Notes: generated by a model from the letters alone, not told the origin. 64,000 bases of DNA from an uncultured Alphaproteobacteria bacterium (GCA_963822365.1 CAWGHM010000009.1:338181-402180); one strand, 5' to 3'; counted from the first letter of the stretch, positions 11,568 through 43,145 are shown. Program-made: numbers and translations.

Positions 11568-11568
11568 G

Positions 11569-14677: not shown

Positions 14678-15689
14678 TCACAGCAGACGCTGCCCGTCCG
14701 CACCGAAATAGAGCGGATCCTTCAGCGTCAAGGTAATATTGTCGCCGGGCTTGACCGGGACGTAAGGGTTGGCCAACGTGACCAGCTTGTGACCGTCGAT
14801 GCGCAGATGCAGATGGCTCTGGTCGCCCAGATGCTCGATCCAGTCGATCTGGGCATTGGCATTGCCGTTTGCCGCGTTGATTTCCAGATGTTCCGTGCGG
14901 GCACCGATCGTCCGCGTTCCCGCAGGCGGCTCCACACCCGGCACGAGCCCGGCCGGAATGAGGTTGATATGCGGCTGACCCAGCCGCGCCGCCACGTGAA
15001 GATTGGCCGGATTGCTGTAGATTTCCCGAGGCGTGCCGACCTGCACAAGCCGGCCGCCATCCAGAATACCGATACGATCGGCCATGGTCATGGCTTCGAT
15101 CTGGTCATGGGTTACGTAGAGCAGGGTCGAGCCCAGCTCGCTCTGGATGCGCTTCAGTTCCAGCCGCAATTCTCCGCGAAGCTTGGCATCGAGCGACGAA
15201 AGCGGTTCGTCCATCAGGTAGATCGCCGGCTTTCGCACCAGCGCCCGGCCGATCGCCACGCGCTGCATCTCCCCGCCCGATAACCGGGTCGAGCGGTTTT
15301 CCAGCTTGTGGTCGATCCGGACCATCTTTGCGACCTCGCGAACCCGCCGGTCGATCTCGTCAGCGGCCATCCGGCGGGCCGGCGAACGCAGCGGAAAAGC
15401 CAGGTTCTCGTACACGGTCAGGTGCGGATAGAGCGAATATTGCTGGAAGACAAAGGCAACGTCGCGGCTGGCCGGCGCAAGGCTCGCCATATCCTGGCCG
15501 CCGATCGTGACGCGGCCCTTGTCCGGCCGCTCCAGCCCGGCGATCAGCCGAAGCGTTGTGGTCTTTCCGGCCCCCGTCGGACCGAGCAACACGACGAACT
15601 CGCCGTCGCGAATGGTCAGCGTCAGCGCGTCGACGGCCTTGTTGTCCCCGAAGGACTTTCGAGATGGATTGCAGCGAAACCTCAGCCAT
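14678..15689 (-). pseudogene. ABC transporter ATP-binding protein (UgpC/MalK-like, first of tandem pair); +1 frameshift at ~15655
   Basis: True start MAEVSLQSISK (ATG 15689) lies in a different frame from the body SFGDNKAVDALTLTIRDGEFVVLLGPTGAGKTT...LSGGEMQRVAIGRAL. The junction tcgAAAgtcc has one extra A relative to an in-frame reading. Confidence 0.8.
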
Positions 15690-16781
15690 GACGGGCCTCC
15701 GTGTGAAGCGAGGACGGAACGGCGCGACCGGAGGCGCATTCGAAGAGCGACAGCTTTTCGCTGTTGAGTTCCAGGCCGACCGTTTCGCCGATCCGGAATG
15801 TGCGATCCGCCGACACGCGGGCCTTGAGCAGCCCCTTGCCCGTCTCGACAGCAACGATCTGGTTGGTGCCGAGATATTCCGCACCATAGACAGAGCCGCG
15901 CAGAGCCGAGCTATCGTTGAAGCGGATATGCTCCGGCCGTACGCCAAGCGCCAGTTCGCCCGGCGCCAGATCCTGATGCACCTCCGGAAGGCCGATCTCC
16001 ACGCCCTCCAGCGAAACCGAGCGCGCGCCCTTGCTGTACGCCTGCGGTGAACTTGAGGAAGTTCATCGGCGGCGAGCCGATGAAGTCTGCGACATACATG
16101 GAGGCCGGACGATTGTAGATTTCCTGTGGCGTACCGAACTGCTCGATGATGCCGTGGTTCATCACGGCGATCTTGTCGGCCATCGCCATGGCTTCGTGCT
16201 GGTCATGGGTAACGTAGACAGTCGTCGCATGGATGCGGTTGTGCAACTCGCGCAACTCATGGACCATGACCTCGCGAAATTCGGCATCCAGCGTACCGAG
16301 CGGTTCGTCCATCAGGAAACATTTCGGCCGCCGCACGATCGCCCGCCCCAGTGCCACGCGCTGCCGGTCGCCGCCGGCAAGACCCGAGACGGACTTGTCG
16401 AGGATATGGCCGATCTGCAGGAGCTTTGCCGTTTCCTCGACGCGCGCCCTGATCTCCGCCTTCGGCACGCCCTGGCTCAGCAGCGGAAAGCCGATGTTCT
16501 TGCGCACGTTCATGTGCGGATAGAGCGCAAACAGCTGGAACACGAAGGCGATGTCGCGGGCGCTGGCCCGGTTGAAGCTCACATCCTCGCCATCGAGAAA
16601 GATCTGGCCGCTGGTCGGCAGTTCCAGTCCGGCAATCATCCTGAGCGTCGTCGTCTTGCCGCAGCCGGATGGTCCAAGCAGCGCCAGGAACTCGCCATCG
16701 GCCACGGTGAAACTCGAATTCCTGCACGGCGACGAATTCACCGAAGGCCTTGCGCAGATTTTCGACCCTGATCTCCGCCAT
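15682..16781 (-). pseudogene. ABC transporter ATP-binding protein (UgpC/MalK-like, second of tandem pair); 2 frameshifts
   Basis: Start MAEIRVENLRKAFGEFVAV (16781) in one frame. Walker A body FLALLGPSGCGKTT...LSQGVPKAEI...YVTHDQHEAMAMADKIAVM in a second frame. C-terminal TOBE domain VEIGLPEVHQDLAPGELALGVRPEHIRF in a third (ORF 15682..16002). Confidence 0.8.
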
Positions 16782-16989
16782 GATCTACTCCGGAAATTTC
16801 GAGACGATGATGAACATCACGGTCCCGGCGAGAAGCGTGAGCCAGCGAATAGGTGTAGAGCACCAGCGCGAATGGCTGGAACAGCATCAGGAATCCAAGC
16901 CGCGATCAAGGCGGTGGCGAGGTTCTCCATCGGCCCGCGCCGCAGAAAGAATGGCACGTTTGGGCTTTGTGGGGGTGTGTTTTCCTGCG

Positions 16990-17950
16990 TCATTTGCGGA
17001 CCGCTCCGAAGGTGATGCCGCGCAGGAGTTGCTTGCGCAGAAGAATGGTGAAGACGAGGATCGGCACGAGGAAGATCGTCGTTCCCGCAGCCACCGCCGG
17101 CCAGTCCTGCCCGCCCTCGCCGATGATCGTCGGAATGAAAGGCGGAGCGGTCTGGGCCGATGCCCGAGGTCAAGCAGAACCGCGAAGGCATATTCGTTCC
17201 AGGCAAAGATCAGGCAGAAGATCGCCGTTGCCGCAATGCCGGTGGTCGCCTGTGGCAGCACGACCTTGAGGAACGCCTGCAGCCGCGTATAGCCGTCGAT
17301 CATCGCCGCTTCCTCATACTCGCGTGGGAATTTCGTCGATGAAACCCTTGAGCAGCCAGACGGCGAGCGAGACATTGACGGCGGTGTAGAGCAGGATCAT
17401 GCCGAGCGCCGTGTCGGACAGGCCAAGCTCGCGATACATGAGATAGATCGGGATCGCGACGGCGATCGGCGGCATCATGCGTGTCGACAGGATGAAGAAC
17501 AGAAGATCATCGGCCAGCGGCACCTTGAAGCGCGAGAACCCGTAGGCCGACAGCGTGCCGAGGAAGACGGCAAGGAAGGTCGAGCCGAAGGCGATGATCA
17601 GCGAGTTCTGGAAGCGCGGCCAGTAGTTGGATGCACCGGCGATCACCATGTTGCGGTTGCGGGTGATCTCGTCGCAGGTCGAGACTGCGGCGCCCCGAGC
17701 GACTGGATATATTCCGGCGTCTGCCGGGTCCGCGTCGTGAACAGGTTGCAATAGCCCTCCAGCGTCGGCTGGAAGACGATCTTCGGCGGATAGCTGATGC
17801 GAATCCGGTGGCGACTTGAAGCTGGTCAGGAAGATCCAGGCAAGCGGCACCATGGTCATCGATCGCATAGAGGATGACGATCGCCCCGGCGATGCGCTTG
17901 GACGTGTTGCTCGGTTCGACGACAGAATGGGCTGTGTTCGCGGCGCTCAT
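16990..17950 (-). pseudogene. carbohydrate ABC transporter permease (UgpE/MalG-like); at least 3 frameshifts
   Basis: Fragments MSAANTAHSVVEPSNTSKRIAGAIVILYAI (start 17950), MVPLAWIFLTSFK...IPIYLMYRELGLSDTALGMILLY, EAAMIDGYTRLQAFLKVVLPQATTG and C-term ...TFGAVRK-stop (TGA 16990-16992) lie in different minus frames. Confidence 0.75.
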
Positions 17951-18923
17951 CGTTGTTTCACCTTGTTCAGCGCTTTGACATAGATGTTGGCGAGACCAAA
18001 GACGGCAACGAAGAGGATGATGGCAAAGGCCGAGGCCCGGCCCGTGCGCCAGCTTTCGAAGGCCTCGCGCTTCAGCGTGATGGAGGCAACCTCGGTGGTC
18101 GAGCCCGGTCCGCCACCGGTCAAAAGCACCACCATGTCGAACATCTTGAAATTTTCGATGCCCCGGAACAGCACGGCCAGCATGATGAAGGGCAGCGCCA
18201 TCGGCATGGTGATCGACCAGAACTGCCGCCAGGCCGACGCGCGGTCCACTTCGGCCGCCTCGTAGATATAATCCGGGATGGAGCGCAGACCGGCAAGGCA
18301 GATCAGCATCACATAGGGCGTCCACATCCAGGTATCGACGATGATGATGGCCCAGGGCGACAGCGTGCACGGAACCGAGCATTTCGAAGGAGGACGGCTC
18401 GATGCCGGTGAAGAAGGAATACGATGTAGTTGAACAGGCCGATCTGCGGCTGGTAGAGAAATCGCCAGAAATTGCCGACCACCGCCGGCGACAGCATCAT
18501 CGGGATGAGGATGACGGTCGTCCAGAAGGCATGGCCGCGAAACTTGCGGTCGATCAGATAGGCCAGCGCAAAGCCGATCAGCATCTGCAGAAGGATCGTC
18601 CAGAAGACGAAATGCGCAGTCGTCTGCATCGCCTGCCAGATGTCGGGATCGTTCAGAACGCGTTGGTAGTTCGAAAGCCCGACGCCTTCGATTTCGGCAT
18701 TCGGCCGGTTCGCCCGGAAATTCGTGAACGAGAGATAGACCGCCCAGATCAGCGGGAAGATATTGATGGCCAGAAGCAGCACGATCGTCGGCAGGATGAA
18801 AACCCAGGCAATCGAGCGATCGGACAGGCCGCGGACACGGTACACAAGCGGCACGGGCGTTGCCCGTACGGCCTTATCCGCGGCCTTGTCCAGAACAGTT
18901 GAATTGGTATCGGTCACGGGCAT
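17947..18923 (-). pseudogene. carbohydrate ABC transporter permease (UgpA/MalF-like); frameshift near 18320-18400
   Basis: N-terminal fragment MPVTDTNSTVLDKAADK...IFPLIWAVYLSFTNF (ORF 18309..19001) and C-terminal fragment IPDYIYEAAEVDRASAWRQFWSITMPMA (ORF 17947..18327) are in different frames. Confidence 0.75.
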
Positions 18924-19014
18924 CACCTGGCACGAAGAAAAGGCGAAAGAAGAAACGGCGCGTCGAGAAACGGCCGCCCGGCTTTCAAACCGGGCGACCA
19001 TTCCGGGAGGATGT

Positions 19015-20334
19015 CAGAGTTTCCCGTCGTCTTCGAAGACTTCCGTCCAGTCCTTGACCAGTCCGTCCAGCGCTTCCTTGGCCGTGCCCTGATCGGCGAC
19101 CACGTAGTCGTGCAGGCGCTTCTGCGTGGCCTGCAGCAGGATGGCGTAGGACGGTTCCTGCCAGAAGTCCTGGACCTGGTTCATCGCGACCAGGAAGTCG
19201 GCCGCAAAGGGCTGGCTGTCCTTGAACGATCGGATCGTTCAGCACGGCATTGTGCACGGCATAACCGCCAAGCGACCACCACTTCTTCTGAACGTCGGGC
19301 TGGGCGAACCATTTGATGTAGGCCAGCGCGCCATCCATGTTGTCGGTATTGGCAACAACCGAGATGCCCTGCCCGCCAAGCGTCGAGGCATTGGATCGTG
19401 CCCTTCGGATTGTCGAAGAAGCCGATCTTGTCGCCGCCGACATTCTCATCCTTGGCGAGGCCCGGGAAGAAGGCAAACCAGTTCATCGCCATCGCCGACC
19501 TGTCCGGATTTGAACGCGTCAAGGTCTTCGCCCATATAGGCGTCGGTATAGCCCGGCGGCGTGCAGCACTTGTAGAGTTCCTTGTATTCCTCCAGTCCCT
19601 TGACGGCCTCGTCGGAATTCACGGCGCCTTCCATGTCATACTTGCCCGGCGTCATTTCATACTTGAAACCATAGGCATAAAGCGCCGCGTGGCGCCCATG
19701 GTGATGCCTTCCGAAGCGCGCTCGGTGAAGATCGCCGCGCCATAGACCTTCTTGCCGTCGATATCGCTTGCCATTGAAGAACTTCGCGGTTTCGAGCAGT
19801 TCCGTGCCAGGTCGTCGGCGGAGCGAGATCGCGACCGGTCGTCGCCTTGAATTCGGCCTGGATTTCCGGCTTGGAGAACCAGTCCTTGCGATAGAACCAG
19901 GCATTGGCGTCGCCCATGGCCGGCAGCGCCCAGTAGTTCGGCGTGCCCTTCGGCCAGGTCGAATAGGCATTCACCGCGGCCTGTGCGAAATCGCTCATCT
20001 TGATCCCTTCCTTGTCGAAGAAATCATTGAGCTTGACGTAGTAACCGTTTTCGGCCGAGCCGCCGAGCCACTGGCTGTCGCCGATCAGCAGATCACAGAG
20101 TTTGCCGCCGGAATTGAGTTCGTTGAGGATGCGATCGGCGAAGTTCGGCCACGGCACGAATTCGAATTTCATCTCCGTGCCGGACTGCGCCGTGAAATCC
20201 TTCGACAGTTCCACAAGCGCGTTTGCCGGATCCCATGCTGCCCAGCACAGGGTGAGTTCGGCCGCCTGCGACACACCTGCCGAAAGCGTCAGCGCCGTTG
20301 TTGCTCCCAGGAGAGCCTTGGTCATTTTCCGCAT
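19015..20334 (-). pseudogene. carbohydrate ABC transporter substrate-binding protein (CUT1 family); at least 4 frameshifts
   Basis: Signal peptide MRKMTKALLGATTALTLSAGVSQA (start 20334), then SBP body scattered over ORFs 19657..20400, 19446..19970, 18985..19476. A fourth frame ends ...WTEVFEDDGKL-stop (TGA 19015-19017). Confidence 0.75.
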
Positions 20335-20682
20335 GTATTCCTCCCAGATACAGAAGCAGGCACCACGCCGGCTTCGGGAATTCCATTTTCCGCACAGCAT
20401 GGCCCCGGTTCAAAAGGGCGCAAAGCTGCGCGACTGCCATCCACCGGGGCCGCCACCAAACCTTACAATTTCACCTGAGCTCCCCGCCCTTCGCCCGACG
20501 GCCAAATCTCGCCGTGTTGAGCAATATGTTTAGTGATATTTATTTTACTCAACATGACAAGAGGCAATCGTTGCTGCACCGCAACCATGCCGCAATGGCT
20601 TGTTGAGAATGATTTCCCGGAAAAAACAAAATCAATCGACTAAACAAATAGTTCAGAGAATGGACTGTCGTGAGCATGCGCA

Positions 20683-20720
20683 AAACAAAAAAATCCCCGA
20701 ACGCGACAAGCGTTCGGGGA
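20683..20720 (-). terminator. rho-independent terminator downstream of purU (stem CCCCGAACGC / GCGTTCGGGG, then U-tract on minus strand)
   Basis: Perfect 10-bp GC-rich stem at 20695-20719. The minus-strand downstream sequence reads ATTTTTTTGTTTTG. Confidence 0.7.
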
Positions 20721-20760
20721 TTTCACAATGTCAGGCCATCGACGATGCCGAAGCGCCGGT

Positions 20761-21646
20761 TCAGCCCATGCGTTCGGAGGCGTAGGAGCCGGGGCTCGCC
20801 GGGAAGACGACGGTGCGGTTGCCGTTGATGAAGGTCCGGTTGTGGATATGGGCATGCACGGCGCGGGCCAGAACCTGGCTCTCGACGTCGCGACCGATCG
20901 AGACATAATCCTCTGCAGACTGCGCATGGGTGATGCGGGCAATATCCTGCTCGATGATCGGGCCTTCATCGAGATCGGCCGTAACGTAGTGCGCTGTCGC
21001 ACCGATCAGCTTCACGCCGCGCTCATAGGCCTGCTTGTAGGGGTTGGCGCCCTTGAACGACGGCAGGAACGAGTGGTGGATGTTGATGATCTTGCCGGAC
21101 ATCTTCTGGCACATGGAATCCGACAGGATCTGCATGTAGCGGGCCAGCACGATCAGTTCGGTTCCGGTCTGCTCGACCACGTCCATGATGCGGGCTTCGG
21201 CCTGAACCTTGTTGGCCTTGGTCACCGGGATGTGGTGGAACGGAATGTCGTGATTGACGACGACCTTCTGATAATCGAAGTGATTGGACACAACACCGAC
21301 GATCTCGATCGGCAGCGCGCCGATCTTCCAGCGATAGAGCAGATCGTTGAGGCAGTGACCGAAGCGCGACACCATCAAGCAGCACCTTCATGCGATGCTC
21401 GCTGTCACGGATGTCGGCATTCATGCCGAAGCGGGTCTTGACGGCTTCGAAGCCTTTTTCAAGCGTCTCGAGCGAAGCGCCCTCCTGGCTGATAAAGGTG
21501 AGGCGCATGAAGAACAGACCGGTTTCCAGATCGTCGAACTGCGAGCTGTCTGTGATGTAGCAGCCCTCGTCCGCCAGATAACCGGTGATCGCCGCGACGA
21601 TGCCGCGGGTGGATTTGCAGGAAACGGTCAGCACATAGCTCTTCAT
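20761..21646 (-). pseudogene. purU: formyltetrahydrofolate deformylase; one frameshift near 21370-21430
   Basis: N-terminal ACT domain MKSYVLTVSCKSTRGIVAAITGYLADEGCYI (ORF 21023..21697). Formyltransferase domain ...VVSNHFDYQKVVVNHDIPFHHIP...SFLPSFKGANPY (ORF 20761..21378) is in another frame. Confidence 0.8.
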
Positions 21647-21808
21647 GGTCTTTAAGTCTTTCGTTTTGGGTCTTGGCTGGCCCTTCCGGCCCAGCATCGT
21701 GGAACGGAAGCTAGCGCGACGCCGGCCCGCCCGTCCATCCGTTTCGCGACATCGGATAGCAGGAACGGGCCATGCCGTCTGTTCTCATCTGGGAACTTGG
21801 TCCGGCGC

Positions 21809-23122
21809 TCAGATATCGAGCGTCGTCTGCCGCTCCCATTCGGTAAAGTGGGAACAAAAGGTATTCCACTCGCCATGCTTGAGCTTGAGGTAGGCGGCGG
21901 AGAATTCCGTCGCCCAGCGCCGCCTGAAGCTCGGTGTCCTTGTCGTATTCGCGCAGCGCGTCGAGCAGGTTGAGCGGCAGCTTCGGCGCGTCCTTGACGG
22001 TGTGGCCGTGCTGGTACATGTCGATGTCGTAGCGCGGCCCGGGATCGGCCTGCGGTGCGGATGCCGTCGAGACCGGCCGCGATGATGATCGCCTGCAGCA
22101 GATAGGGATTGACCGCGCCGTCCGGCAGGCGCAGTTCGAAGCGGCCGGGACCCGGCACGCGGACCATGTGGGTGCGGTTGTTGCCGGTCCAGGTCACGGT
22201 GTTGGGCGCCCAGGTGGCGCCGGAGATGGTGCGCGGCGCGTTGATGCGCTTGTAGGAATTGACCGTCGGATTGGTGATCGCGGCCAGCGCCGAGGCATGC
22301 TTCATGATGCCGCCGAGGAAGGTGCGGCCCTTGGCCGACAGGCCGAGCTCGCATGCTCTTGTCGGCGAAGACGTTGATCTTGCCGTCGACTTGTCCCAGA
22401 CCGAGATATGGGCATGGCAGCCATTGCCGGTCAGGCCCTTGAAGGGCTTGGGCATGAAGGTGGCGCGCAGGCCGTGCTTCTCGGCGACCGACTTGACCAT
22501 GAACTTGAAGAAGGAGTGCTTGTCGGCGGTGGCGAGCGCGTCGTCATACTCCCAGTTCATCTCGAACTGGCCGTTCGCGTCCTCGTGGTCGTTCTGGTAG
22601 GGCTCCCAGCCGAGCTCCAGCATGTAGTCGCAGATTTCGGCGATGACGTCGTAGCGGCGCATCACCGCCTGCTGGTCGTAGCAGGGCTTCTCGGCGGTAT
22701 CGGACTCGTCGGAAATCTGCGTGCCGTCCGGCGAGATCAGGAAGAATTCGGACTCGACGCCGGTCTTGACCCGCAGGCCCTCGCCGGCGGCTTCCGCGAT
22801 CAGCCGCTTCAGCATGACGCGCGGCGCCTGTTCGACGGGCTTGTCTTCCATGACGCAGTCGGCCGCGACCCAGGCGACATCCGGCTTCCACGGCAGCTGG
22901 ATGACGCGAGTCGGCATCGGGCACGGCGAACAGGTCGGGATGGGCCGGCGTCAGGTCGAGCCAGGTGGCGAAGCCGGCAAAGCCGGCGCCGTCCTTCTGC
23001 ATGTCGGCGATCGCCTGCGCCGGCACCAGCTTGGCGCGCTGGCCACCGAACAGGTCGGTGTAGGAGATCATGAAATATTTGATGCCACGCTCCTTGGCGA
23101 AGGCGGCAAGATCGATTGTCAC
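21809..23122 (-). pseudogene. gmaS: glutamine synthetase family protein, candidate gamma-glutamylmethylamide synthetase; at least 3 frameshifts
   Basis: N-term MTIDLAAFAKERGIKYFMISYTDLFGGQRAKLVP (ORF 22544..23122). Catalytic core ...KPFKGLTGNGCHAHISVWDK...NPTVNSYKRI (ORF 21652..22917). C-term ...EFSAAYLKLKHGEWNTFCSHFTEWERQTTLDI (ORF 21809..22354) in a further frame. The GS next to NMG synthase genes implies the NMG pathway. Confidence 0.7.
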
Positions 23123-23211
23123 TGTGTTCCCCTTTGGATTATTCAGACACTTTTTCGTGGAAAGGCCGCTACCTGTCTTGGGAGATCAGGCAACGGCCAG
23201 ATTGTGCTTGG

Positions 23212-24545
23212 TCAGAAGCCTCCCTTGCCCGGAATCCAGCTCGTGCCGGCCAGCGGCACCTGCGCCATGGCGGCGGCCTCGATGGTCAGCGCGCACGAGA
23301 TCTTCCGGCTCGAGATTGTGCACGTGGTTCTTGCCGCAGGCGCGCGCGATGGTCTGCGCTTCCAGCGTCATCACCTTGAGATAGTTGGCAAGCCGGCGTC
23401 CGGCCGCGACCGGATCGAGGCGCTTCGGCAAGCTCCGGGTCCTGCGTGGTGATGCCGGCCGGGTCCCTGCCCTCGTGCCAGTCGTCATAGGCGCCGGCCG
23501 TGGTGCCGAGCTCGTTGTACTCGGCTTCCCAGCGCGGATCGTTGTCGCCGAGCGCAACCAGCGCCGCCGTGCCGATCGAGACCGCGTCGGCGCCGAGCGC
23601 CAGCGCCTTGGCGACATCGGCGCCGTTGCGGATGCCGCCCGAGACGATGAGCTGCACCTTGCGGTGCATGCCGAGATCCTGCAGCGCCTGCACGGCCGGG
23701 CGGATGCAGGCGAGCGTCGGCAGGCCGACATGCTCGATGAACACTTCCTGCGTCGCCGCCGTGCCGCCCTGCATGCCGTCGAGCACGACGACGTCGGCGC
23801 CGGCCTTCACCGCCAGCGCGGTGTCGTAATAGGGCCGCGCGCCGCCGACCTTGACGTAGATCGGCTTTTCCCAGTCGGTGATCTCGCGCAGTTCCAGGAT
23901 CTTGATTTCGAGATCGTCCGGGCCGGTCCAGTCGGGATGGCGGCAGGCCGAGCGCTGGTCGATGCCCTTGGGCAGGGTGCGCATCTCGGCGACGCGGTCG
24001 GAAATCTTCTGGCCGAGCAGCATGCCGCCGCCGCCGGGCTTGGCGCCCTGGCCGACCACGATCTCGATGGCGTCGGCGCGGCGCAGATCGTCGCGGGTTC
24101 ATGCCGTAGCGCGACGGCAGATACTGGTAGACGAGCGTCTGCGAATGGCCGCGCTCCTCCTCGCGTCATGCCGCCGTCGCCGGTGGTGGTCGAGGTGCCG
24201 GCGAGCGTGGCGCCGCGGCCGAGCGCTTCCTTGGCCGGGCCCGACAGCGAGCCGAAGCTCATGCCGGCGATGGTGATCGGGATCTTCAGCTCGATCGGCT
24301 TCTTGGCAAAGCGCGTGCCGAGCACGACGCTGGTGTCGCATTTCTCGCGGTAGCCTTCGAGCGGATAGCGCGAGATCGAGGCGCCGAGGAACAGCAGGTC
24401 GTCGAAATGCGGCACCTTGCGCTTGGCGCCGCCGCCGCGGATGTCGTAGATGCCGGTCGCCGCCGCGCGGCGGATTTCCGACAGCGTGTAGTCGTCGAAG
24501 GTCGCGGACTTGCGCGGCGTGGTGCGGCGGGTTCTGGTAGGTCAT
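23212..24545 (-). pseudogene. mgsC: N-methylglutamate synthase subunit C (glutamate synthase FMN-binding domain, GltB domain-2-like); at least 4 frameshifts
   Basis: Start MTYQNPP (24545). MPHFDDLLFLGASISRYPLEGYREKCDTSVVLG (ORF 23807..24415). FMN/Fe-S domain GQGAKPGGGG...VKVGGARPYYD...IVSGGIRNGADVAKALALGADAVSIGTAALVALG (ORF 23286..24059). C-term ...AMAQVPLAGTSWIPGKGGF-stop (TGA 23212-23214) in another frame. Confidence 0.7.
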
Positions 24546-24557
24546 GGCTGTCCCGCC

Positions 24558-25249: not shown

Positions 25250-25289
25250 CGCTTCCAGACTTTCTTGTCTTAGACTGACATTCACGTTC

Positions 25290-26354: not shown

Positions 26355-26618
<264 letters not shown>

Positions 26619-26641
26619 GACGATCCGATCGAGGTCAGTTC

Positions 26642-27064: not shown

Positions 27065-27082
27065 GCAGCGCATCCTATCCGC

Positions 27083-34311: not shown

Positions 34312-34554
34312 ATGGCTTCCACCTCCACCCCGCCGGGTGCCCGTCAATCGCAAACCCGCCTTCATCGTTTTTCGGTCGGCCAGAAGGTCCGGATGAGAAG
34401 TACGGTCGGTTTGTCATTGCGCGATGAAACGATTTTTCGCATTCTCGCAAAATTGCCTGTTCGGGATGGCTCGCCGCAATACCGCGTCCGCAGCGAAGGC
34501 GAAACCTACGAACGTGTAACGACGGAAGACAATCTCGAAGACGCCAAGGGGTAG
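34312..34554 (+). CDS. hypothetical small protein (80 aa; possible SH3/KOW-like small domain)
   Basis: ATG 34312 preceded by SD AAGGAGA at 6-nt spacing. Sequence MASTSTPPGARQSQTRLHRFSVGQKVRMRSTVGLSLRDETIFRILAKLPVRDGSPQYRV... Lies in an 800-bp gap between mgdD and hutC. Confidence 0.4.
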   Translation: MASTSTPPGARQSQTRLHRFSVGQKVRMRSTVGLSLRDETIFRILAKLPVRDGSPQYRVRSEGETYERVTTEDNLEDAKG

Positions 34555-34600
34555 GCACCATAAGCGCCACCCCGATCATCCACTGAGGAAGGACACGACC

Positions 34601-34741
34601 ATGGCCAAGGGGCAAGCGAAGAGCAACAAGGAAGTCAGAAAGCCGAAAAAGGACAAGGAAGCCGTCAAGGCTGCAGCGCCGTTCGCCGCGACGCTCAATA
34701 AGGAAGTGCCCAAGCTTTCCGGCGCAAAGCCCAAGAAATAA
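34601..34741 (+). CDS. hypothetical small lysine-rich basic protein (46 aa)
   Basis: ATG 34601 with strong SD GAGGAAGGA at 7-nt spacing. MAKGQAKSNKEVRKPKKDKEAVKAAAPFAATLNKEVPKLSGAKPKK, stop TAA 34739-34741. Below the 60-aa cutoff of the ORF track. Confidence 0.35.
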   Translation: MAKGQAKSNKEVRKPKKDKEAVKAAAPFAATLNKEVPKLSGAKPKK

Positions 34742-34804
34742 GGGCCGTCCGAAACCGGCAGGTGGCGGGATCTCCGCCACTTGGTCCGCTGGCCAGGTCT
34801 GGTT

Positions 34805-35591
34805 TTACTTCGGCTGGGACGGGGTAAAGTTCGCCACCAGCGCATGCCGCTCGCCGGGGTAGATCAGCCGGACATGGGTGATGTAGGCACCATTGCTCCA
34901 TGTGCGCCGCTCGACGGTGAGACAGGCCGTTCCGATGGCAATTCCCAGAGCCGCCGCAATCGTTTCATCGGCTGCAACAGCGCGGATCGTGTGTTCGGCC
35001 GCACTCCAGGGCACCCTGTTCAGCAGCCAGGGGCCCGGTGCCAGTTCCTCGAAGGTCTCTGACACGGCATCCGGCACGGCGGCCAGATTGATCAGGCGCT
35101 GCTCGACGCAAAATGGCCGCCCACCCGCAAGATGGACGCAGTCGATATCGAGGACAGCGGCTGCAGCCTCCAGCCCCAGACGACGCCGATCCTCCGCCGT
35201 GCTGCGGCGCTTGCTCTTCGCCAAAAGCCTGTAATCATAGGCAAGACCGAGGGACTGGACCTCAAGCTTGATATCGCGGATTTCAAGCACCGCCGACTGT
35301 GCCCGCGGCTGAGTCACATAGCTGCCGGACTTGCGCCGCCGCTCGATCAGGCCGGTCTTTGCCAGTTGCGTCAGCGCCTTGTTCACGGTCATCCGTGAAC
35401 ATTTGTACTGCTCGGCAAGATCGACCTCGAAAGGTATGCGAAACCCTGGGTGCCCATTCGCCCGTCAGGATCCGGTCCTCGATGTCGCCGAGGATGCGCT
35501 GGTGCAGCGAAAGCTCGCCTGCGCCATCGGCTGGAACCGCTCCGCTTTCCAACCCTGCATCACTCTCTGCATAACTGCGCGATTTTACCAA
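34805..35591 (-). pseudogene. hutC: histidine utilization repressor (GntR family, UTRA effector domain); one frameshift at ~35448
   Basis: N-term ...ELSLHQRILGDIEDRILTGEWAP (ORF 35283..35591). Shifts at cccAgggtttcg to ...FRIPFEVDLAEQYKCSRMTVNKALTQLAKTGLIERRRKSGSYV plus UTRA domain (ORF 34805..35392). Confidence 0.75.
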
Positions 35592-35683
35592 GGTCCCACT
35601 TCCATAGGCCGGTCGAGATGCCGGTCGTTATCGTTCTTGCCGAGATCATTCGTCAGGGACACCCCTTATCGGAATGCGATCGG

Positions 35684-37027
35684 TCAGGCCAGAAGCGCAT
35701 GCATGACGGCACGAAACCGGGACGCGATCTGGGCACGCTTTGCATGCTGTCCGTTTTCGACCTGCTTGACGCCGGCGACCCAGACACAATCCGGCTTTGT
35801 CCCATTGGCAAACAGCCAGGAATCGAGCACGGCATCATCTGTCAGTTTGCCGATATCCGGCTGCCGCAGGCTGACGAAATCGGCAGGTTTGCCGACGCTG
35901 AGGCCGACCTCCGAGCCGAGCGCCCTGCCGCCGCCGTCAACGGAACCGTCAAACAATGCCCGTCCGGTCGATTGCCCCGGCGCCGTCAGGACATTGCGCG
36001 AGCGATGCAGCAGGCGCTGCGAATATTCGAGCTGGCGCAACTCGTCTGGAATGCCGATCAGGATGTTGGAATCGGAACCGATCCCGAACCTGCCACCGGC
36101 CTCGCCAAAGACGACTGCGTTGAACGTGCCGTCACCAAGATTGGCTTCCGTCACCGGGCAGAGCCCGGCAATTGCGCCGGCCTTCGCCATCCGGCGCGTT
36201 TCATCATCGGTCATGTGGGTTGCATGGATCAGGCACCAGCGATCGTCTATCCCTGCATTGTCGAGCAGCCATTCAACCGGCCGCGCTCCCGACCAGGCCA
36301 CGCAATCCTCAACTTCCCTGACCTGTTCGGCCACATGAATATGGACCGGCCCGTCCTTTGCCATCGCCACCACCGCGGAAAGCTCGTCCGGCGTTACCGC
36401 CCGCAGGCTGTGGGGCGCGACACCGACATTGCCGCCCGGCAGACCGCCAACAGCGCGATGGCAGCCTTCGAGCAGGCGCGCGAAGCTTTGTGGATCATTG
36501 ATGAACCGGCGCTGCCCCTCGTTCGGCTCCGCCCCGCCAAAGGTCGAATGGGCATAGAAGACGGGAAGCAGGGTGAGGCCGATGCCGGTCTGCGCGGCCG
36601 CAGCGGCGATCCGCTGCGCCATCTCGGAAATATCGGCATAGGGCCGTCCGTCAATATCGTGGTGCAGATAGTGAAATTCACCGACGCGGGAAAATCCGGC
36701 TTCCAGCATCTCCATGTAGAGCTGGGCAGCAACGGCCTCGACATGATCCGGCGTCATCGACAGCGCAAACCGGTACATGACATTGCGCCAGCTCCAGAAG
36801 CTGTCAGCGCCAGGGCCGCGCATTTCGGCAAGTCCCGCCATGCCGCGCTGGAACGCGTGGCTGTGCAGATTGGGCATGCCCGGAACGAGGATATCGTGGC
36901 GCTCGTCGCCTGAGGTCGCCTCGACGCCCGCCTCAACGGAAACGATCCGGCCCGACTGCGCCTTTAGCCGCACATTCTTTTGCCAGCCCGCCGGCGTGAG
37001 TACCGATTTCCCATGAATGCTGGTCAA
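35684..37027 (-). CDS. hutF: formimidoylglutamate deiminase
   Basis: 447-aa intact ORF. Amidohydrolase metal-binding motifs (NLHSHAFQRG; HIHVAEQ). Confidence 0.85.
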   Translation of the reverse strand: MTSIHGKSVLTPAGWQKNVRLKAQSGRIVSVEAGVEATSGDERHDILVPGMPNLHSHAFQRGMAGLAEMRGPGADSFWSWRNVMYRFALSMTPDHVEAVAAQLYMEMLEAGFSRVGEFHYLHHDIDGRPYADISEMAQRIAAAAAQTGIGLTLLPVFYAHSTFGGAEPNEGQRRFINDPQSFARLLEGCHRAVGGLPGGNVGVAPHSLRAVTPDELSAVVAMAKDGPVHIHVAEQVREVEDCVAWSGARPVEWLLDNAGIDDRWCLIHATHMTDDETRRMAKAGAIAGLCPVTEANLGDGTFNAVVFGEAGGRFGIGSDSNILIGIPDELRQLEYSQRLLHRSRNVLTAPGQSTGRALFDGSVDGGGRALGSEVGLSVGKPADFVSLRQPDIGKLTDDAVLDSWLFANGTKPDCVWVAGVKQVENGQHAKRAQIASRFRAVMHALLA

Positions 37028-37128
37028 GGTCTCATCCCTTCCTGACTGTCGTCACATCAAAAAAACACTTGCGCTGATTTTCTATATGTCTATACATAAT
37101 ATCATGAAAAGGAAAGGCGCAAAAATCG

Positions 37129-38383
37129 ATGTCTTCCACAAATTCGACGACGGAACCTAAGAAAAAAGCGGCCTGCGACAGGCTCTGGCGCAATGCCCGC
37201 CTTGCGACACTCGACCCGAAACTGCCGGGCCTTGGCATCGTTGAAAATGGTGTCATTGCCGTCGAAGACGGACGGATTCTCTATGCCGGCAGCGAAGACA
37301 ATCTTCCCTTTGCGATCGTCGACGCAGCAGACATCATCGATTGCGAAGGTCGCTGGATCACGCCCGGCCTGATCGACTGCCACACCCATCTGGTCCATGC
37401 CGGCGATCGCGCCAACGAATTCGAGATGCGGCTGGCAGGTGCCACCTATGAAGAGGTCGCCCGTGCCGGCGGCGGTATCGTCTCCTCGGTTCGCGCATTG
37501 CGCGAGGCGAGTGAAGACGAGCTTGTCCGCCAGACCCTTCCTCGGCTTGATGCACTGATCGCCGAAGGGGTCACCACCGTCGAAATCAAATCCGGCTACG
37601 GCCTCGACCTCGAAAACGAGGCAAAGACCCTGCGCGCCGCCCGCCGTCTCGGCGAAGAGCGCGACGTCGCCATCCGCACCACCTTTCTCGGTGCCCATGC
37701 CCTGCCGCCCGGAGTTCAAGGGCGATCAGGCCGGCTATATCGCCAACGTCGTCGAGGAAATGCTGCCGGCGATTGCCGCTGAAGGGCTTGCGGATGCAGT
37801 CGACGGCTTCTGCGAGGGGATCGCCTTTTCGACGGATGACATGCGGCTGGTGTTCGATGCGGCCAAGGCCCATGGCCTCCCGGTCAAGCTCCACGCCGAC
37901 CAGCTTGTCCAATCTGCACGGCGCCGCCCTTGCCGCCGAATATGGCGCGCTCTCGGCCGATCATCTCGAATATACCGATGAAGCCGGCGCGCAAGCCATG
38001 GCAAACAGCGGCACCGTTGCCGTCATCCTGCCGGGCGCCTTCTATTTCATCCGCGAGACGAAGAAGCCGCCGATCGATCTGTTCCGCAAGGCACGGCGTT
38101 GCGATGGCCATCGCAACCGACAGCAATCCCGGCACCTCGCCGCTGACCTCGCTGCTTCTGACAATGAACATGGCGGCCACCCTGTTCGGCATGACGGTCG
38201 ATGAATGCATCGCCGGCGTAACCCGCGAGGCCGCCCGCGCACTCGGGCCTCGTCGACGAGGTCGGCACGTTGGAGCCCGGCAAATGGGCCGATTTCGCCA
38301 TCTGGAACATCGAGCGACCGGCCGAACTCGTCTACCGCATGGGCTTCAACCCGCTGCATGCGCGCGTCCGCAACGGACAATGA
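37129..38383 (+). pseudogene. hutI: imidazolonepropionase; about 4 frameshifts
   Basis: N-term to ...FLGAHALPP intact ([23 protein letters not shown]). Later [39 protein letters not shown]..., [35 protein letters not shown] and [44 protein letters not shown]-stop in shifted frames. Confidence 0.8.
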
Positions 38384-38432
38384 CATTGAAAGACGCGTGA
38401 GCCCTGCTCCGCGCATTGGTGAGGACTTTGCA

Positions 38433-39985
38433 ATGACCATTATTCTTCAGCCCGGGCGCCGTCCCGCTTTCGACCCTTGAGACCATCTACTGGACCGGCG
38501 AGCCCGCCCGGCTTGATCCCTCCTTCGACACGGGCATCGAGAAGGCCGCCGCCCGCATCGCCGAGATCGCCGCCGGCAATGCGCCGGTCTATGGCATCAA
38601 TACCGGCTTCGGCAAACTGGCCAGCATCAGGATCGATGCCGCCGACGTCGCCACCCTGCAGCGCAATCTCATCCTGTCGCATTGCTGCGGCGTCGGCCAG
38701 CCGCTGGCGGAAAACATCGTCCGCCTGATCATGGCGCTGAAGCTGATCTCGCTCGGCCGTGGCGCATCCGGCGTGCGGCTCGAACTGGTGCGCCTGATCG
38801 AGGCCATGCTCGAAAAGGGCGTCATTCCGGTCATCCCGGAAAAGGGCTCGGTCGGCGCCTCCGGCGACCTCGCACCGCTTGCCCATATGGCAGCCGTGAT
38901 GATGGGTGAAGGCGAAGCCTTTTTCAAGGGCGAACAGCTTGACCGGCGCGCACCGCGCTGGAACGCGCCGGCCTGCACCCCGGTCGTTCTGGCCGCCAAG
39001 GAAGGTCTGGCGCTGATCAACGGCACGCAGGTCTCCACCGCGCTGGCGCTGGCCGGCCTGTTCCGCGCCCATCGCGCCGCACAGGCGGCGCTGATCACCG
39101 GCGCGCTGTCGACCGATGCCGCCATGGGATCGTCGGCACCGTTCCATCCCGATATCCACACGCTGCGCGGCCACAAGGGCCAGATCGATGCAGCCGCCGC
39201 CCTGCGCGGCCTGCTGGCCGGTTCGGTGATCCGCGAAAGCCATCTCGAGGGCGACGAGCGCGTTCAGGACCCCTATTGCATCCGCTGCCAGCCGCAGGTC
39301 GATGGCGCCTGCCTCGATCTCCTGCGCTCGGTTGCCCGCACGCTCGAAATCGAAGCCAATGCGGTGACCGACAATCCGCTGGTTCTGTCCGACGATTCAG
39401 CGTCGTCTCGGGCGGCAATTTTCACGCCGAGCCGGTGGCCTTCGCCGCCGATCAGATCGCCCTTGCCATCTGCGAGATCGGCGCCATCGCCCAGCGCCGC
39501 ATCGCGCTTGCTGGTCGATCCGGCCCTGTCCTACGGCCTGCCGGCGTTTCTCGCCAAGAAGCCCGGGCCTCAATTCCGGCCTGATGATCGCCGAAGTCAC
39601 CTCCGCCGCGCTGATGAGCGAAAACAAGCAGATGTCGCATCCGGCCTCGGTCGATTCGACACCGACCTCGGCCAATCAGGAAGACCATGTCTCCATGGCC
39701 TGCCATGGCGCCCGCCGCCTGCTGCAGATGACCGACAACCTGTTTTGCAATCATCGGCATCGAGGCGCTGACGGCCGCCCAGGGCGTCGACTTCCGCGCC
39801 CGCTGACCACCAGCCCGGAACTGCAACAAGGCCATTGCCGCGATCCGCACCGTCGTCGCCGACACTGGAAGTCGATCGCTATATGGCCGACGATCTGCAG
39901 GCAGCCAGCGATCTGATCGCCACCGGCATCGCTGAACGCTGCGGTTTCGGCCGGCATCCTGCCGGTCGCTGGAGGCTTGAGATGA
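38433..39985 (+). pseudogene. hutH: histidine ammonia-lyase; about 10 frameshifts
   Basis: MTIILQPG then shift. ...[45 protein letters not shown]...[26 protein letters not shown] (MIO-forming ASG). Further fragments ...[99 protein letters not shown]-term ...SLNAAVSAGILPVAGGLR-stop (TGA 39983) overlaps the hutG ATG. Confidence 0.8.
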
Positions 39986-40805
39986 ACCGTCGTTCGAAGT
40001 CACACAGGGCACATCCCCGGTCATCCTCGGCTTTCCGCACACCGGCACCGATGTGCCCGCCCGCAATCTGCGAGCGGCTGAACGACAATGGCCGCATCCT
40101 CGCCGATACCGACTGGCATATCCACCATCTCTATGACGGCCTGCTGCCGGATGCGACGACGGTGCGCGCCACCTTCCACCGCTACGTCATCGACGCCAAC
40201 CGCGACCCGGCAGGCGCCAGCCTCTATCCCGGCCAGAACACCACGGGTCTCGTGCCGCGACACGGATTTTGACGGCGTGGCCGATCTGGAAGGACGGCGA
40301 AGAGCCGACCGAAGCCGACATTGCGCTCCGGCTTGCCGATTTCCACGCGCCCTATCACGCGGCTCTGGCAGGCGGAGATCGAGCGGGTCAAGGCCATCCA
40401 CGGCATTGCCGTCCTCTACGATTGCCATTCGATCCGCTCGCAGATCCCGTTCCTGTTCGAAGGCACGCTGCCGGATTTCAACATCGGCACCGACAGCGGC
40501 AAGACCTGCGATCCGTCGATCGAGACCGCCGCCGTCGAAGTTGCGTCGAAGGCCGCAGGGCTACACCTGCATTCTCAACGGTCGCTTCAAGGGCGGCTGG
40601 ACGACGCGCCACTACGGCAAGCCGGCAGACCGGCGTGCATGCGATCCAGATGGAACTGGCGCAGTCCACCCATCTGACCACCGAGACGCCGCCCTTCGCC
40701 TATGACGACGCCAAGGCGGCCAGACTTCGCATTCACCTGAACAGACATTCTCACGCGCATCGAATCCGCTGCGCTGACACTGGCACCCACCAGAAGGGGA
40801 ACCAG

Positions 40806-40809
<4 letters not shown>
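39982..40809 (+). pseudogene. hutG: N-formylglutamate amidohydrolase; frameshifts, 3' end uncertain (40740 or 40809)
   Basis: SD GGAGG then ATG 39982, MN then a 1-nt deletion (cc vs ccc). Continues [51 protein letters not shown]... Later fragments [26 protein letters not shown] and ...[34 protein letters not shown] in other frames. Confidence 0.65.
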
Positions 40810-42483
<1,674 letters not shown>

Positions 42484-42486
42484 GGC

Positions 42487-42879
42487 TTAGATCAGCGGAT
42501 ATTTCGGAAGACCGGGATACCGAAGAACTGCATCATCGACAGTGATCAATGGGACCCCTTCGATGATTGCCTGAGCAATCAGGATGCGATCAAAGGGGTC
42601 TTTGTGAAGCAACGGCAAACCTGCAATCGCAATTGCGTGTTCGCTGTTTATGGGAAGCTCGGTATATCCGTTTTCGAGAAGGCGATACCGCAGGACGAAG
42701 GGATCGGTGCGAAAATCGTCCCGCCCTAGACTGTGTTTTGTCGCCGTTTCCCAGATGCTCGCAGGACTGAAATTGAGCTCGTTGTTCGTATCTTCAATGA
42801 GCTTTCTGATGCCGGTGGACAGCATATCGAGATCGCCCGCCGCCCAGATCAGAATATGTGTATCGAGCAGCAGTCTCAT
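42487..42879 (-). CDS. vapC: type II toxin VapC (PIN domain)
   Basis: 130-aa [19 protein letters not shown]...[21 protein letters not shown] with conserved PIN acidic residues. ATGA overlap with the antitoxin. Confidence 0.8.
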
Positions 42880-43145
42880 CGGTCTTTGAATTTGTCGGGA
42901 TTGCCGTAGAACATCTCTTCGATTTCATCGGCCATCATCGTATCGAAATCATCCGGCATGACGATTTCGCCTTTCATGAAACCGATCCGGCGCTTCTTCG
43001 GCGTGTCCGCGTCATCCAACGGCACAAGTTTTCCGATCGGCTTGCCGGCCTTGGCTATGATGAAGGATTCACCTTTGGAAACCTTTTCCATCAGGCGTGA
43101 GAGATGCGTCTTCGCTTCGTGTATATTGATGGTCTCCATCACCAT
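42876..43145 (-). CDS. type II antitoxin, Phd/YefM family
   Basis: 89-aa ORF METINIHEAKTHLSRLMEKVSKGESFIIAKAGKPIGKLVPL. Stop overlaps the vapC start. Confidence 0.75.
   Translation of the reverse strand: MVMETINIHEAKTHLSRLMEKVSKGESFIIAKAGKPIGKLVPLDDADTPKKRRIGFMKGEIVMPDDFDTMMADEIEEMFYGNPDKFKDR

What the first reader, a model, noticed from the sequence alone, without database searches (positions are those of the whole stretch)
14678..43000. Clustered, insertion-biased frameshifts break almost every gene of four catabolic loci while neighbouring long genes stay intact
At least 60 apparent single-nucleotide indels are packed between ~14.7 kb and ~43 kb, with a few more in the thiC, GH32, flotillin and first ATPase genes. 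Both ABC ATPases, both permeases and the SBP of the CUT1 transporter, EI, purU, gmaS, mgsCBA, mgdABC, hutC/I/H/G/U are each split across two to four reading frames. Yet the 1066-aa RND pump, hutF (447 aa), fused DAK (549 aa), dhaK, dhaL, the first operon's permeases and all regulators are intact. Resolved junctions are mostly +1 insertions in short runs: tcgAAAgtcc at ~15655, catGcag at ~29440, gcAAAAggcg at ~53800, cgcCttc at ~30095. One hutG junction is a deletion (cc for ccc at ~39990). Protein-level signal is otherwise conserved (no premature stops from substitutions, no large deletions), which argues against old pseudogenes. This is either regional low-quality consensus (homopolymer-type error) or very recent, ongoing inactivation of methylamine, histidine, DHA/glycerol-like uptake and thiamine functions. 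The distinction matters for every functional inference from this replicon.
Basis: seen in the sequence. Interest (0 to 1): 0.7.

Follow-up and report, generated by a model that had tools for sequence, protein, structure and literature searches.

The report
Assembly insertion errors mimicking pseudogenes
About ninety stray single extra bases break nearly every gene in three stretches of this rhizobial replicon. Everything testable without the reads says they are consensus errors in the deposited sequence, not real gene decay, so the histidine, methylamine and sugar-uptake genes should be read as intact.

Summary
Alignment against 3-9 related Rhizobiaceae loci finds 87 window-private 1-2 nt insertions and about 10 small deletions between 15.66 and 42.15 kb (3.3 per kb). 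The other 37 kb carries about 7 (0.19 per kb). Control genomes carry 0-8.

The events form three dense patches: 15.66-25.79 kb, 29.38-32.76 kb and 37.71-42.15 kb. The clean stretches between them have edges that fall inside genes, not at gene or operon borders.

55 of 77 insertions copy neither neighbour. Sites show no codon-phase or motif preference, and the inserted bases follow local base composition.

Deleting only these bases restores full-length, stop-free genes. Repaired hutU, hutI, purU and soxB match NCBIfam models end to end. No repaired gene contains a nonsense codon, and dN/dS is 0.005-0.13, the same as in the clean neighbours.

Natural decay would be deletion-biased and slippage-linked, with stop codons. 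About 25 nonsense codons are expected at 10 substitutions per indel; none is seen.

Verdict: consensus or assembly error, probably residual random-insertion noise of single-molecule long reads in poorly covered or unpolished stretches. The platform is inferred, and the reads are needed for proof. This is not a biological feature.

The parts
15661..25791 (.). Dense patch 1: 36 window-private 1-2 nt insertions (3.6 per kb). It covers two ABC ATPase genes, two permeases, the SBP, purU, glnT/gmaS-like and mgsC/B/A-like genes, all on the minus strand. The last event lies inside mgsA, about 400 nt before its 5' end.
   Evidence: MSAs against 3-9 relatives. tblastn frame series such as mgsC -1,-2,-3,-1,-2.
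25792..29378 (.). Clean stretch 1 (3.6 kb, 0 events). It holds the 5' end of mgsA, an intergenic region, the XRE regulator 27092-27736(-), the GlxA regulator 27885-28835(-) and the first 450 nt of soxB.
   Evidence: No private indels. Single-HSP tblastn for GlxA and XRE. P(empty | patch rate) = 8e-6.
29379..32755 (.). Dense patch 2: 24 insertions (7.1 per kb) in soxB (4), soxD (2-3) and soxA (17 insertions, 2 deletions). These are sarcosine-oxidase-family (mgd-like) genes on the plus strand. The patch starts and ends inside genes.
   Evidence: Repaired soxB matches TIGR01373 over 1-407/407 at 735.7 bits; the unrepaired ORF matches only 1-151/407.
32756..37707 (.). Clean stretch 2 (4.95 kb) with a single +1, at 35448 in hutC. 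It holds the last 685 nt of soxA, soxG 33436-33999(+), hutC 34808-35534(-), hutF 35684-37027(-) and the first 580 nt of hutI.
   Evidence: hutF gives a single HSP over residues 1-445.
37708..42146 (.). Dense patch 3: 26 insertions (5.9 per kb) in hutI (4), hutH (11 insertions, 1 deletion), hutG (7) and hutU (4), all on the plus strand.
   Evidence: Repaired hutU matches TIGR01228 over 1-544/545 at 967.6 bits and hutI matches TIGR01224 over 2-376/377; the unrepaired ORFs match 1-192/545 and 2-161/377.
42147..52290 (.). Clean stretch 3 (about 10 kb). It holds the 3' end of hutU, hutD, the HlyD-type adaptor 44676-45905, the RND pump 45944-49144, GT4 49316-50716 and S6PP 50686-51690.
   Evidence: Uninterrupted ORFs and full-length Pfam matches. 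hutD gives a single HSP.
10038..11590 (-). PTS EI-like (PEP-utilizer) gene with at least two +1 frameshifts, at about 10,188 and about 10,860.
   Evidence: tblastn frames -1, -2, -3 against the Phyllobacterium EI-like protein. Pfam domains are split over ORFs 10048-10956 and 10703-11368.
2..665 (-). ABC ATPase at the window edge, with one +1 (T at 509).
   Evidence: MSA against three Sinorhizobium loci. tblastn frame change -3 to -1.
4947..5930 (-). GFO/IDH/MocA oxidoreductase with one +1 (T at 5002) near its 3' end.
   Evidence: MSA. Pfam.
51484..53201 (-). GH32 glycosidase with one frame change at about 52,297, of -1 (or +2) type.
   Evidence: tblastn frames -3 to -2. Pfam GH32N 1-166 and 196-304 fall on separate ORFs.
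53421..55062 (-). Flotillin (Band_7) gene with one +1 at about 53,790 (a C in GATCGCC).
   Evidence: tblastn frames -2 to -3. blastn alignment to R. leguminosarum pSK03.
62000..63834 (+). thiC with two +1 insertions (T at 62792, G at 63438). An intact TPP riboswitch precedes it at 61770-61902.
   Evidence: MSA against three thiC loci. tblastn frames 2, 3, 1. Rfam RF00059 at 69.5 bits.

Best explanation
The frameshifts are errors in the deposited consensus, not mutations in the organism.

Shown:
- The window carries about 94 extra single (occasionally double) bases that no relative has. They are placed at random with respect to codon phase, sequence motif and homopolymers.
- They sit in kilobase-scale patches whose edges ignore gene borders.
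- Removing them, and nothing else, restores complete, conserved, stop-free genes.

Inferred mechanism:
- The replicon, a 402,180-nt contig, was assembled from error-prone single-molecule long reads. The raw noise of such reads is dominated by random indels rather than substitutions, as in PacBio-CLR-type data.
- In stretches where effective depth or polishing was insufficient, some spurious inserted bases survived into the consensus at 0.4-0.7%.
- Well-covered or polished stretches are nearly clean.

The underlying histidine-utilisation, N-methylglutamate/sarcosine-oxidase-type, ABC-uptake, EI, GH32, flotillin and thiC genes should therefore be treated as intact. The platform and the cause of the patchiness are inference only.
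For: 1. Lineage-specific excess. The window has 52 private +1 and 6 private +2 insertions, against 0-8 in nine relatives aligned in the same MSA. The same pattern appears with independent relatives.
2. Direction. 94 insertions against 10 deletions, p = 3e-18.
3. Not slippage. 55 of 77 inserted bases differ from both neighbours, as do 9 of the 14 in perfectly conserved context.
4. Random placement. Codon slots are 29/21/27. There is no positional motif, and inserted-base composition does not differ from local composition (chi-square p = 0.16).
5. Repair test. Deleting the private insertions turns 2-5 HSPs per gene into single full-length stop-free HSPs for purU, mgsC/B/A, soxB/D, hutC/I/G/U, the ATPase, both permeases and the SBP. 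Repaired hutU, hutI, purU and soxB match NCBIfam models end to end, far above cutoff.
6. No decay signature. There are zero nonsense codons in 15.8 kb of repaired coding sequence, against about 25 expected at 10 substitutions per indel (P(0) = 9e-12; at 3 per indel, P(0) = 5e-4). dN/dS is 0.005-0.13 in broken genes and 0.009-0.16 in intact ones. Private substitutions are not clearly elevated overall in dense patches, though purU-mgs runs about 2x the control lineages.
7. Physical rather than functional pattern. Patch edges lie inside mgsA, soxB, soxA, hutI and hutU. Empty gaps of 3.6, 2.7 and 2.3 kb have P = 8e-6 to 6e-4.
8. Relatives. All relatives examined have open orthologues.
9. Record status. 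The source contig's hutF protein carries no source-given name, and the nearest other public homologue is only 89% identical.
10. Literature. PacBio RS raw errors are reported as about 15x more indels than substitutions, random and unbiased by homopolymers or GC. Nanopore errors are deletion-rich and homopolymer-biased (PMC4719071). Long-read assembly errors are a known cause of false pseudogenes (PMC12007338, PMC8574707).
Against: - No reads, coverage or assembly metadata could be reached, so the key test is missing.
- The signature differs from published residual errors of polished long-read assemblies. Those are mostly homopolymer indels, and G/C deletions in high-GC PacBio assemblies (PMC8574707, PMC12007338).
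- That insertions outnumber deletions in PacBio CLR reads comes from my own knowledge, not from a paper I read here.
- The cause of the patchiness is unresolved. Local GC correlates only moderately (Spearman 0.36-0.60), with counter-examples: 12.6-15.6 kb at 64% GC is clean and 16.6-19.6 kb at 60% is dirty. No repeats or IS elements mark the patch edges.
- The closest relative is only 87-90% identical, so individual events, especially small deletions and closely spaced insertion/deletion pairs, could be genuine differences.
- The inserted base shows a marginal coding-strand C>G excess (38 against 21, p = 0.036, uncorrected).
Confidence: 0.88

Rival explanations
1. Genuine, very recent pseudogenisation. 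The bacterium really carries about 90 frameshifts and has just lost histidine, methylamine and sugar-uptake functions.
For: The affected genes are accessory catabolic functions on a secondary replicon, where relaxed selection is plausible. Several genes carry many hits, as neutral decay would allow. Without reads it cannot be strictly excluded.
Against: - The insertion:deletion ratio is about 9:1, whereas bacterial decay is deletion-biased (established knowledge).
- 71% of the insertions are non-templated, which does not fit slippage.
- There are zero nonsense codons, against 8-25 expected.
- dN/dS equals that of the intact neighbours.
- Patch borders cut through genes, and soxG and the ends of soxA, soxB, hutI and mgsA are spared.
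- There are no large deletions or IS insertions.
- All relatives are intact.
Confidence: 0.03
2. Still an artefact, but of a hybrid assembly. The clean stretches are short-read-supported or polished sequence. The dense patches are long-read-only bridges left unpolished because short-read coverage dropped out, for example through GC bias.
For: - The alternation of clean and dirty kilobase blocks has sharp edges.
- Indel density correlates with local GC (rho 0.36-0.60, p <= 1e-3). The three densest kilobases have 65-68% GC, and clean blocks are often 56-62%.
Against: - Patch 1 between 16.6 and 20.6 kb has only 57-61% GC yet 3-6 events per kb, while 12.6-15.6 kb at 63-64% GC is clean.
- GC is confounded with coding density.
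- No metadata were available.
Confidence: 0.3
3. Still an artefact, but from collapsing two diverged templates (co-assembled strains or paralogues). A graph consensus keeps both alleles of a SNP as adjacent bases, giving non-homopolymer +1 insertions in polymorphic stretches.
For: It would explain non-duplicative insertions drawn from local composition, and patchiness that follows where the two templates differ.
Against: - Insertions show no preference for third-codon-position neighbourhoods (29/21/27).
- Only 9 of 77 inserted bases form a transition pair with the left neighbour, and 9 with the right.
- No near-identical paralogues exist within the window.
- Private substitutions are not elevated overall in the dense patches, apart from about 2x in purU-mgs.
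Confidence: 0.07
4. A mixture: most events are artefacts, but a few are real lineage-specific changes. Candidates are the GH32 -1 event and the closely spaced insertion/deletion pairs at 20358/20382, 31112/31141, 31730/31805 and 39799/39825.
For: - The control genomes also show a handful of private 1-nt indels.
- Paired events restore the frame within 25-75 nt, as real compensated changes or alignment shifts would.
- GH32 is the only opposite-direction frameshift outside the patches.
Against: With relatives at <= 90% identity, single events cannot be told apart. The paired events may simply be alignment ambiguities.
Confidence: 0.35

Closest known systems
Gene-fragmenting indel errors in long-read bacterial assemblies (described for example in Kastor, PMC12007338, and ARAMIS, PMC8574707)
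   Same: Single-base indels in the consensus split otherwise conserved genes into apparent pseudogenes. They are detectable by comparison with relatives, and removing them restores the genes.
   Different: Published residual errors are mostly homopolymer-associated. In high-GC PacBio assemblies they are G/C deletions. Here they are insertions, mostly non-homopolymeric, and confined to kilobase patches.
Raw error profile of PacBio RS continuous long reads (review PMC4719071)
   Same: Indels greatly outnumber substitutions. Errors are random in position and not biased by homopolymers or GC.
   Different: Raw reads carry more than 10% error, whereas the patches here carry 0.4-0.7%, so this would be residual noise after an incomplete consensus. 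The platform of this record is unknown.
Genuine bacterial pseudogene decay or reductive evolution (for example in recently host-restricted lineages; deletional bias is established knowledge)
   Same: Many disrupted reading frames clustered in accessory catabolic operons.
   Different: There is no deletion bias, no nonsense mutations, no relaxed dN/dS, no link to slippage-prone runs, no IS insertions or large deletions, and the orthologues in relatives are intact.
Programmed frameshifting or phase-variable contingency loci
   Same: The reading frame changes within a gene.
   Different: There is no slippery or repeat motif at the sites, there are up to 17 sites per gene, and nothing is conserved in orthologues.

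Membership tests
Sequencing or assembly consensus indel artefact | The indels are private to this record; orthologues in all relatives are open. | tested here: met
   52 private +1 and 6 private +2 insertions, against 0-8 in nine relatives. Annotated intact orthologues in pT136c, pLN1, pRetTAL182d and pRlX2.
Sequencing or assembly consensus indel artefact | Removing the indels alone restores full-length conserved proteins with no other lesions. | tested here: met
   Single stop-free HSPs after repair. End-to-end NCBIfam equivalog matches above cutoff.
Sequencing or assembly consensus indel artefact | The spatial pattern follows physical blocks (reads, contigs or coverage), not gene function. 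| tested here: met
   Patch edges lie inside mgsA, soxB, soxA, hutI and hutU. Variance/mean ratio 3.7, p = 2e-21.
Sequencing or assembly consensus indel artefact | The error spectrum matches a known platform signature. | tested here: inconclusive
   Random non-homopolymer indels with few substitutions fit PacBio-CLR-type raw noise (PMC4719071). They do not fit the homopolymer or deletion residuals reported for polished PacBio or ONT assemblies (PMC8574707, PMC12007338).
Sequencing or assembly consensus indel artefact | Reads, or an independent technology, do not support the indels; depth is low in the affected blocks. | not testable with these tools
   The source record could not be retrieved. 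Only its contig length of 402,180 nt is known.
Genuine pseudogenes (neutral gene decay) | Deletion-biased indels, concentrated in homopolymers or repeats (slippage). | tested here: not met
   94 insertions against 10 deletions. 71% of the insertions duplicate neither neighbour.
Genuine pseudogenes (neutral gene decay) | Accompanying nonsense substitutions and relaxed selection. | tested here: not met
   0 stop codons in 15.8 kb of repaired coding sequence. dN/dS 0.005-0.13, the same as in intact genes.
Programmed frameshift or phase variation | A conserved slippery or repeat motif at the shift site, shared with orthologues. | tested here: not met
   Flat position-specific base counts around the sites. 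The sites are absent from all relatives.

The most novel reading that the evidence does not exclude
The insertions are real and were made by an unknown, localised, insertion-specific mutational or editing process. That process would add non-templated single bases in kilobase tracts of a secondary replicon within a very short time, for example an aberrant repair or terminal-transferase-like activity acting on specific DNA tracts. The result would be many frameshifts without any substitutions.
Probability: 0.02. Interest if true: 0.85.

Novelty: not a real feature. Interest (0 to 1): 0.08.

Why it matters
It matters for how the record is read, not for biology. Taken at face value, the record suggests that this rhizobium has lost histidine utilisation, N-methylglutamate-type methylamine catabolism, a sugar ABC importer, PTS EI and thiC. 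On the present evidence none of those losses should be believed.

Any pseudogene count, metabolic reconstruction, pangenome or selection analysis that includes this 402-kb contig would be distorted.

The case also shows that false frameshifts need not look "homopolymer-type".

Tried and rejected
- **Finding the source record or a near-identical second assembly.** Exact-protein look-ups for hutF, the RND pump, GlxA, OCD and P0001 found nothing. The protein search shows only the source's own hutF (one contig of 402,180 nt, unnamed), and the next best is 89% identical. No close-relative test was therefore possible.
- **Reference-free frame-tracking HMM.** It recovers most dense-patch events. It also flags ordinary 4-nt gene overlaps and mis-assigns strand, so I used it only as a guide.
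- **GC-driven short-read dropout as the sole cause of the patches.** The correlation is real but moderate, with clear counter-examples. I kept it only as a rival.
- **Repeats or IS elements at patch edges.** None were found.
- **Haplotype-collapse signature.** There is no third-position or transition-pair enrichment.
- **Sequence motif or methylation-site (GANTC) association.** By eye, about 6 of 95 sites have a GANTC nearby, against about 5.5 expected. Position-specific counts are flat.
- **Coding-strand bias of the inserted base.** C 38 against G 21, p = 0.036 uncorrected. The overall composition test gives p = 0.16, so I do not treat it as meaningful.
- **Excess private substitutions in dense patches (mismatch errors or relaxed selection).** None overall, with at most about 2x in purU-mgs.
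- **L015 (Rhizobium sp. RCAM05350) as a clean "nanopore-type" contrast.** It has more private deletions than insertions, but they are not clearly homopolymeric, so the contrast is inconclusive.
- **Residual frame breaks after repair.** glnT, soxA and hutH each keep one, near 22,390, about 30,740 and about 38,950. These reflect alignment uncertainty over 1 nt against 2 nt, not stop codons.
Full report
**What the window is.** It is a 62% GC stretch of a Rhizobiaceae secondary replicon. The nearest sequence found in a scan of one representative genome per bacterial species is the Rhizobium sp. 32-5/1 chromosome, at 87-90% nucleotide identity. That genome is syntenic with the window over 17.1-38.9 kb, as are R. 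herbae DSM 26427 and several Pararhizobium and "Rhizobiales bacterium" genomes. The window's hutF protein exists in the public protein collection as a single unnamed entry from one contig of 402,180 nt held by NCBI and ENA. The next best homologue is 89% identical. Exact-protein look-ups could not retrieve the source contig. No near-identical genome or read set was therefore available.

**Checking the observation.** I aligned window 17.0-39.0 kb with nine syntenic relatives. I then counted, for every genome in turn, the indels private to that genome.
- The window has 52 private +1 insertions, 6 private +2 insertions and only 4 private -1 deletions.
- The nine other genomes have 0-8 private +1 insertions each.

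Independent sets of relatives extend the census to the rest of the window:
- three Sinorhizobium loci for 1-7.1 kb;
- S. terangae, Phyllobacterium and S. fredii for 11.6-20.4 kb;
- five hut loci for 35.6-43.5 kb;
- three thiC loci for 61.7-64 kb.

Reference proteins were used for EI, GH32 and flotillin.

In total there are 87 small insertions and about 10 small deletions between 15,661 and 42,146. Outside that range there are seven +1 insertions: ATPase 509, oxidoreductase 5002, EI about 10,188 and about 10,860, flotillin about 53,790, and thiC 62,792 and 63,438. There is also one opposite-direction event, in GH32 at about 52,297.
- Insertions against deletions: p = 3e-18.
- Density: 3.3 per kb inside against 0.19 per kb outside, p = 2e-25.
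- 1-kb bins: variance/mean ratio 3.7, p = 2e-21.

These are the RND pump, hutF, fused DAK, dhaK, dhaL, the first operon's permeases and SBP, and the LacI, GlxA and XRE regulators. So the core observation holds.

- The span is not uniformly affected. There are three dense patches: 15,661-25,791 (36 insertions), 29,379-32,755 (24) and 37,708-42,146 (26). Clean stretches of 3.6 and 4.9 kb separate them; the second carries a single event, in hutC. A 10-kb clean stretch follows. At the patch rate, gaps this long have P = 8e-6 to 6e-4.
- The patch edges lie inside genes. The first 450 nt of soxB, the last 685 nt of soxA, the first 580 nt of hutI, the last 330 nt of hutU and the 5' 400 nt of mgsA are clean. 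soxG, in the same operon as the heavily hit soxA, is untouched. The sparing of regulators is therefore a by-product of where the blocks fall, not a functional pattern.
- The insertions are not homopolymer-type. 55 of 77 single-base insertions inside genes differ from both neighbours, as do 9 of the 14 lying in perfectly conserved context.
- Placement looks random. Sites are spread evenly over the three codon slots (29/21/27). There is no positional motif. Inserted bases (C 38, G 21, A 15, T 11 in coding orientation) do not differ significantly from local composition (p = 0.16).
- Some junctions were misplaced. The flotillin junction, read as an extra A in a run, is better explained by a C in GATCGCC. 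The supposed hutG deletion at about 39,990 was not found.

**Artefact or biology?** Four lines of sequence-only evidence agree.
1. *Repair test.* Deleting only the private insertions converts 2-5 tblastn fragments per gene into single, full-length, stop-free alignments. This holds for purU, mgsC, mgsB, mgsA, soxB, soxD, hutC, hutI, hutG, hutU, one ABC ATPase, both permeases and the SBP, at 80-95% amino-acid identity to relatives. Repaired hutU, hutI, purU and soxB match NCBIfam models end to end, far above the curated cutoffs. The longest unrepaired ORFs match only 1-192/545, 2-161/377 and 1-151/407.
2. *No other damage.* There are zero nonsense codons in 15.8 kb of repaired coding sequence. 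2.9% of random substitutions there would create a stop. With 87 indels, even 3 substitutions per indel predicts 7.6 stops (P(0) = 5e-4), and 10 per indel predicts 25 (P(0) = 9e-12). Private substitutions at otherwise invariant columns are not generally elevated in the dense patches. dN/dS against two relatives is 0.005-0.13 in broken genes and 0.009-0.16 in intact ones.
3. *Wrong spectrum for natural mutation.* Bacterial indels are deletion-biased and slippage-driven, meaning they duplicate or delete a neighbouring base (established knowledge). Here the ratio is 9:1 in favour of insertions, and most of them are non-templated.
4. *Implausible accumulation.* Multiple hits per gene, 17 in soxA alone, could build up neutrally only over a time that would also leave substitutions, and none are seen.

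No known programmed-frameshift or phase-variation mechanism fits. There is no motif and nothing is conserved in orthologues.

**Most likely mechanism.** The extra bases are residual consensus errors.
- *Shown:* they are record-specific, random, insertion-only, patchy, and removable without trace.
- *Inferred:* the assembly derives from single-molecule long reads whose noise is dominated by random indels. Spurious insertions survived in stretches with low effective depth or without polishing.

A published review describes PacBio RS raw errors as about 15-fold more indels than substitutions, random and unbiased by homopolymers or GC. It describes nanopore errors as deletion-rich and homopolymer-biased (PMC4719071). 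That insertions exceed deletions in such PacBio reads is my own recollection.

There are caveats.
- Published residual errors in polished assemblies are mostly homopolymer indels, and G/C deletions in high-GC PacBio assemblies (PMC8574707, PMC12007338). This record would therefore have to be under-polished rather than typical.
- The cause of the patches is unresolved. Local GC correlates with density (rho 0.36-0.60), as short-read dropout in a hybrid assembly would predict. But 12.6-15.6 kb (64% GC) is clean and 16.6-19.6 kb (60% GC) is dirty.
- No repeats or IS elements sit at the edges.
- A haplotype-collapse artefact finds no support in codon-phase or transition-pair tests.

**Comparison with what is known, and verdict.** False pseudogenes from long-read consensus errors are a recognised problem. 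This is an instance with an unusual spectrum: non-homopolymer, insertion-only and patchy. It is not a biological feature. A few individual events could be real, because relatives are no more than 90% identical. Candidates are the GH32 shift and the closely spaced insertion/deletion pairs.

I put the probability that the bulk are artefacts at about 0.9. I put genuine mass pseudogenisation at about 0.03, and an unknown insertion-specific biological process at about 0.02.

The decisive test is a read pile-up or amplicon re-sequencing at the listed sites. Until then, functional inferences from this replicon should treat the affected genes as intact and the record as needing polishing.

Noticed in passing
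window 2502-2641: A 140-nt window-private intergenic insert lies between a permease gene and its SBP gene. Both ends are hairpins (CTTCTCCCC-n3-GGGGAGAAG), and the element folds strongly (-94 kcal/mol, z = -6). Relatives occur at 242 places in 129 Rhizobiaceae plasmid records. It looks like a dispersed RIME/REP-like intergenic repeat.
   Followed up: partly
window 61770-61902 (+): An intact TPP riboswitch (RF00059, 69.5 bits) lies upstream of thiC, which carries two +1 insertions.
   Followed up: yes
window 49316-53201: A cluster of a GT4 glycosyltransferase with a weak sucrose-synthase-domain match, a sucrose-6F-phosphate phosphohydrolase (S6PP) and a GH32 glycosidase. This suggests a sucrose synthesis and hydrolysis module on this replicon.
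   Followed up: no
window 53421-57093 (-): A flotillin (Band_7), YqiJ-type OB-fold membrane protein and PspA/IM30 gene trio. The same order is seen on R. leguminosarum plasmid pSK03.
   Followed up: partly
L015 (Rhizobium sp. RCAM05350, CP087974.1) and L016 (Rhizobium sp. 32-5/1, NZ_CP120638.1), whole loci: Other public "complete" genomes of this clade carry private 1-2 nt indels in the same locus. L015 has 8 insertions, 12 single and 5 double deletions; L016 has 2 insertions and 7 deletions. They may have consensus errors of their own, with the opposite bias.
   Followed up: partly
window 20358/20382, 31112/31141, 31730/31805, 39799/39825: Closely spaced insertion/deletion pairs restore the reading frame within 25-75 nt. 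They could be real compensated changes, alignment shifts or paired errors.
   Followed up: no
window 8503-14703 (-): A dihydroxyacetone kinase locus holds both a split dhaK/dhaL/dhaM-HPr-EI set and a fused Dak1-Dak2 kinase. A conserved 136-aa hypothetical gene (9592-10002) lies between dhaK and the EI-like gene, as in Phyllobacterium zundukense.
   Followed up: partly
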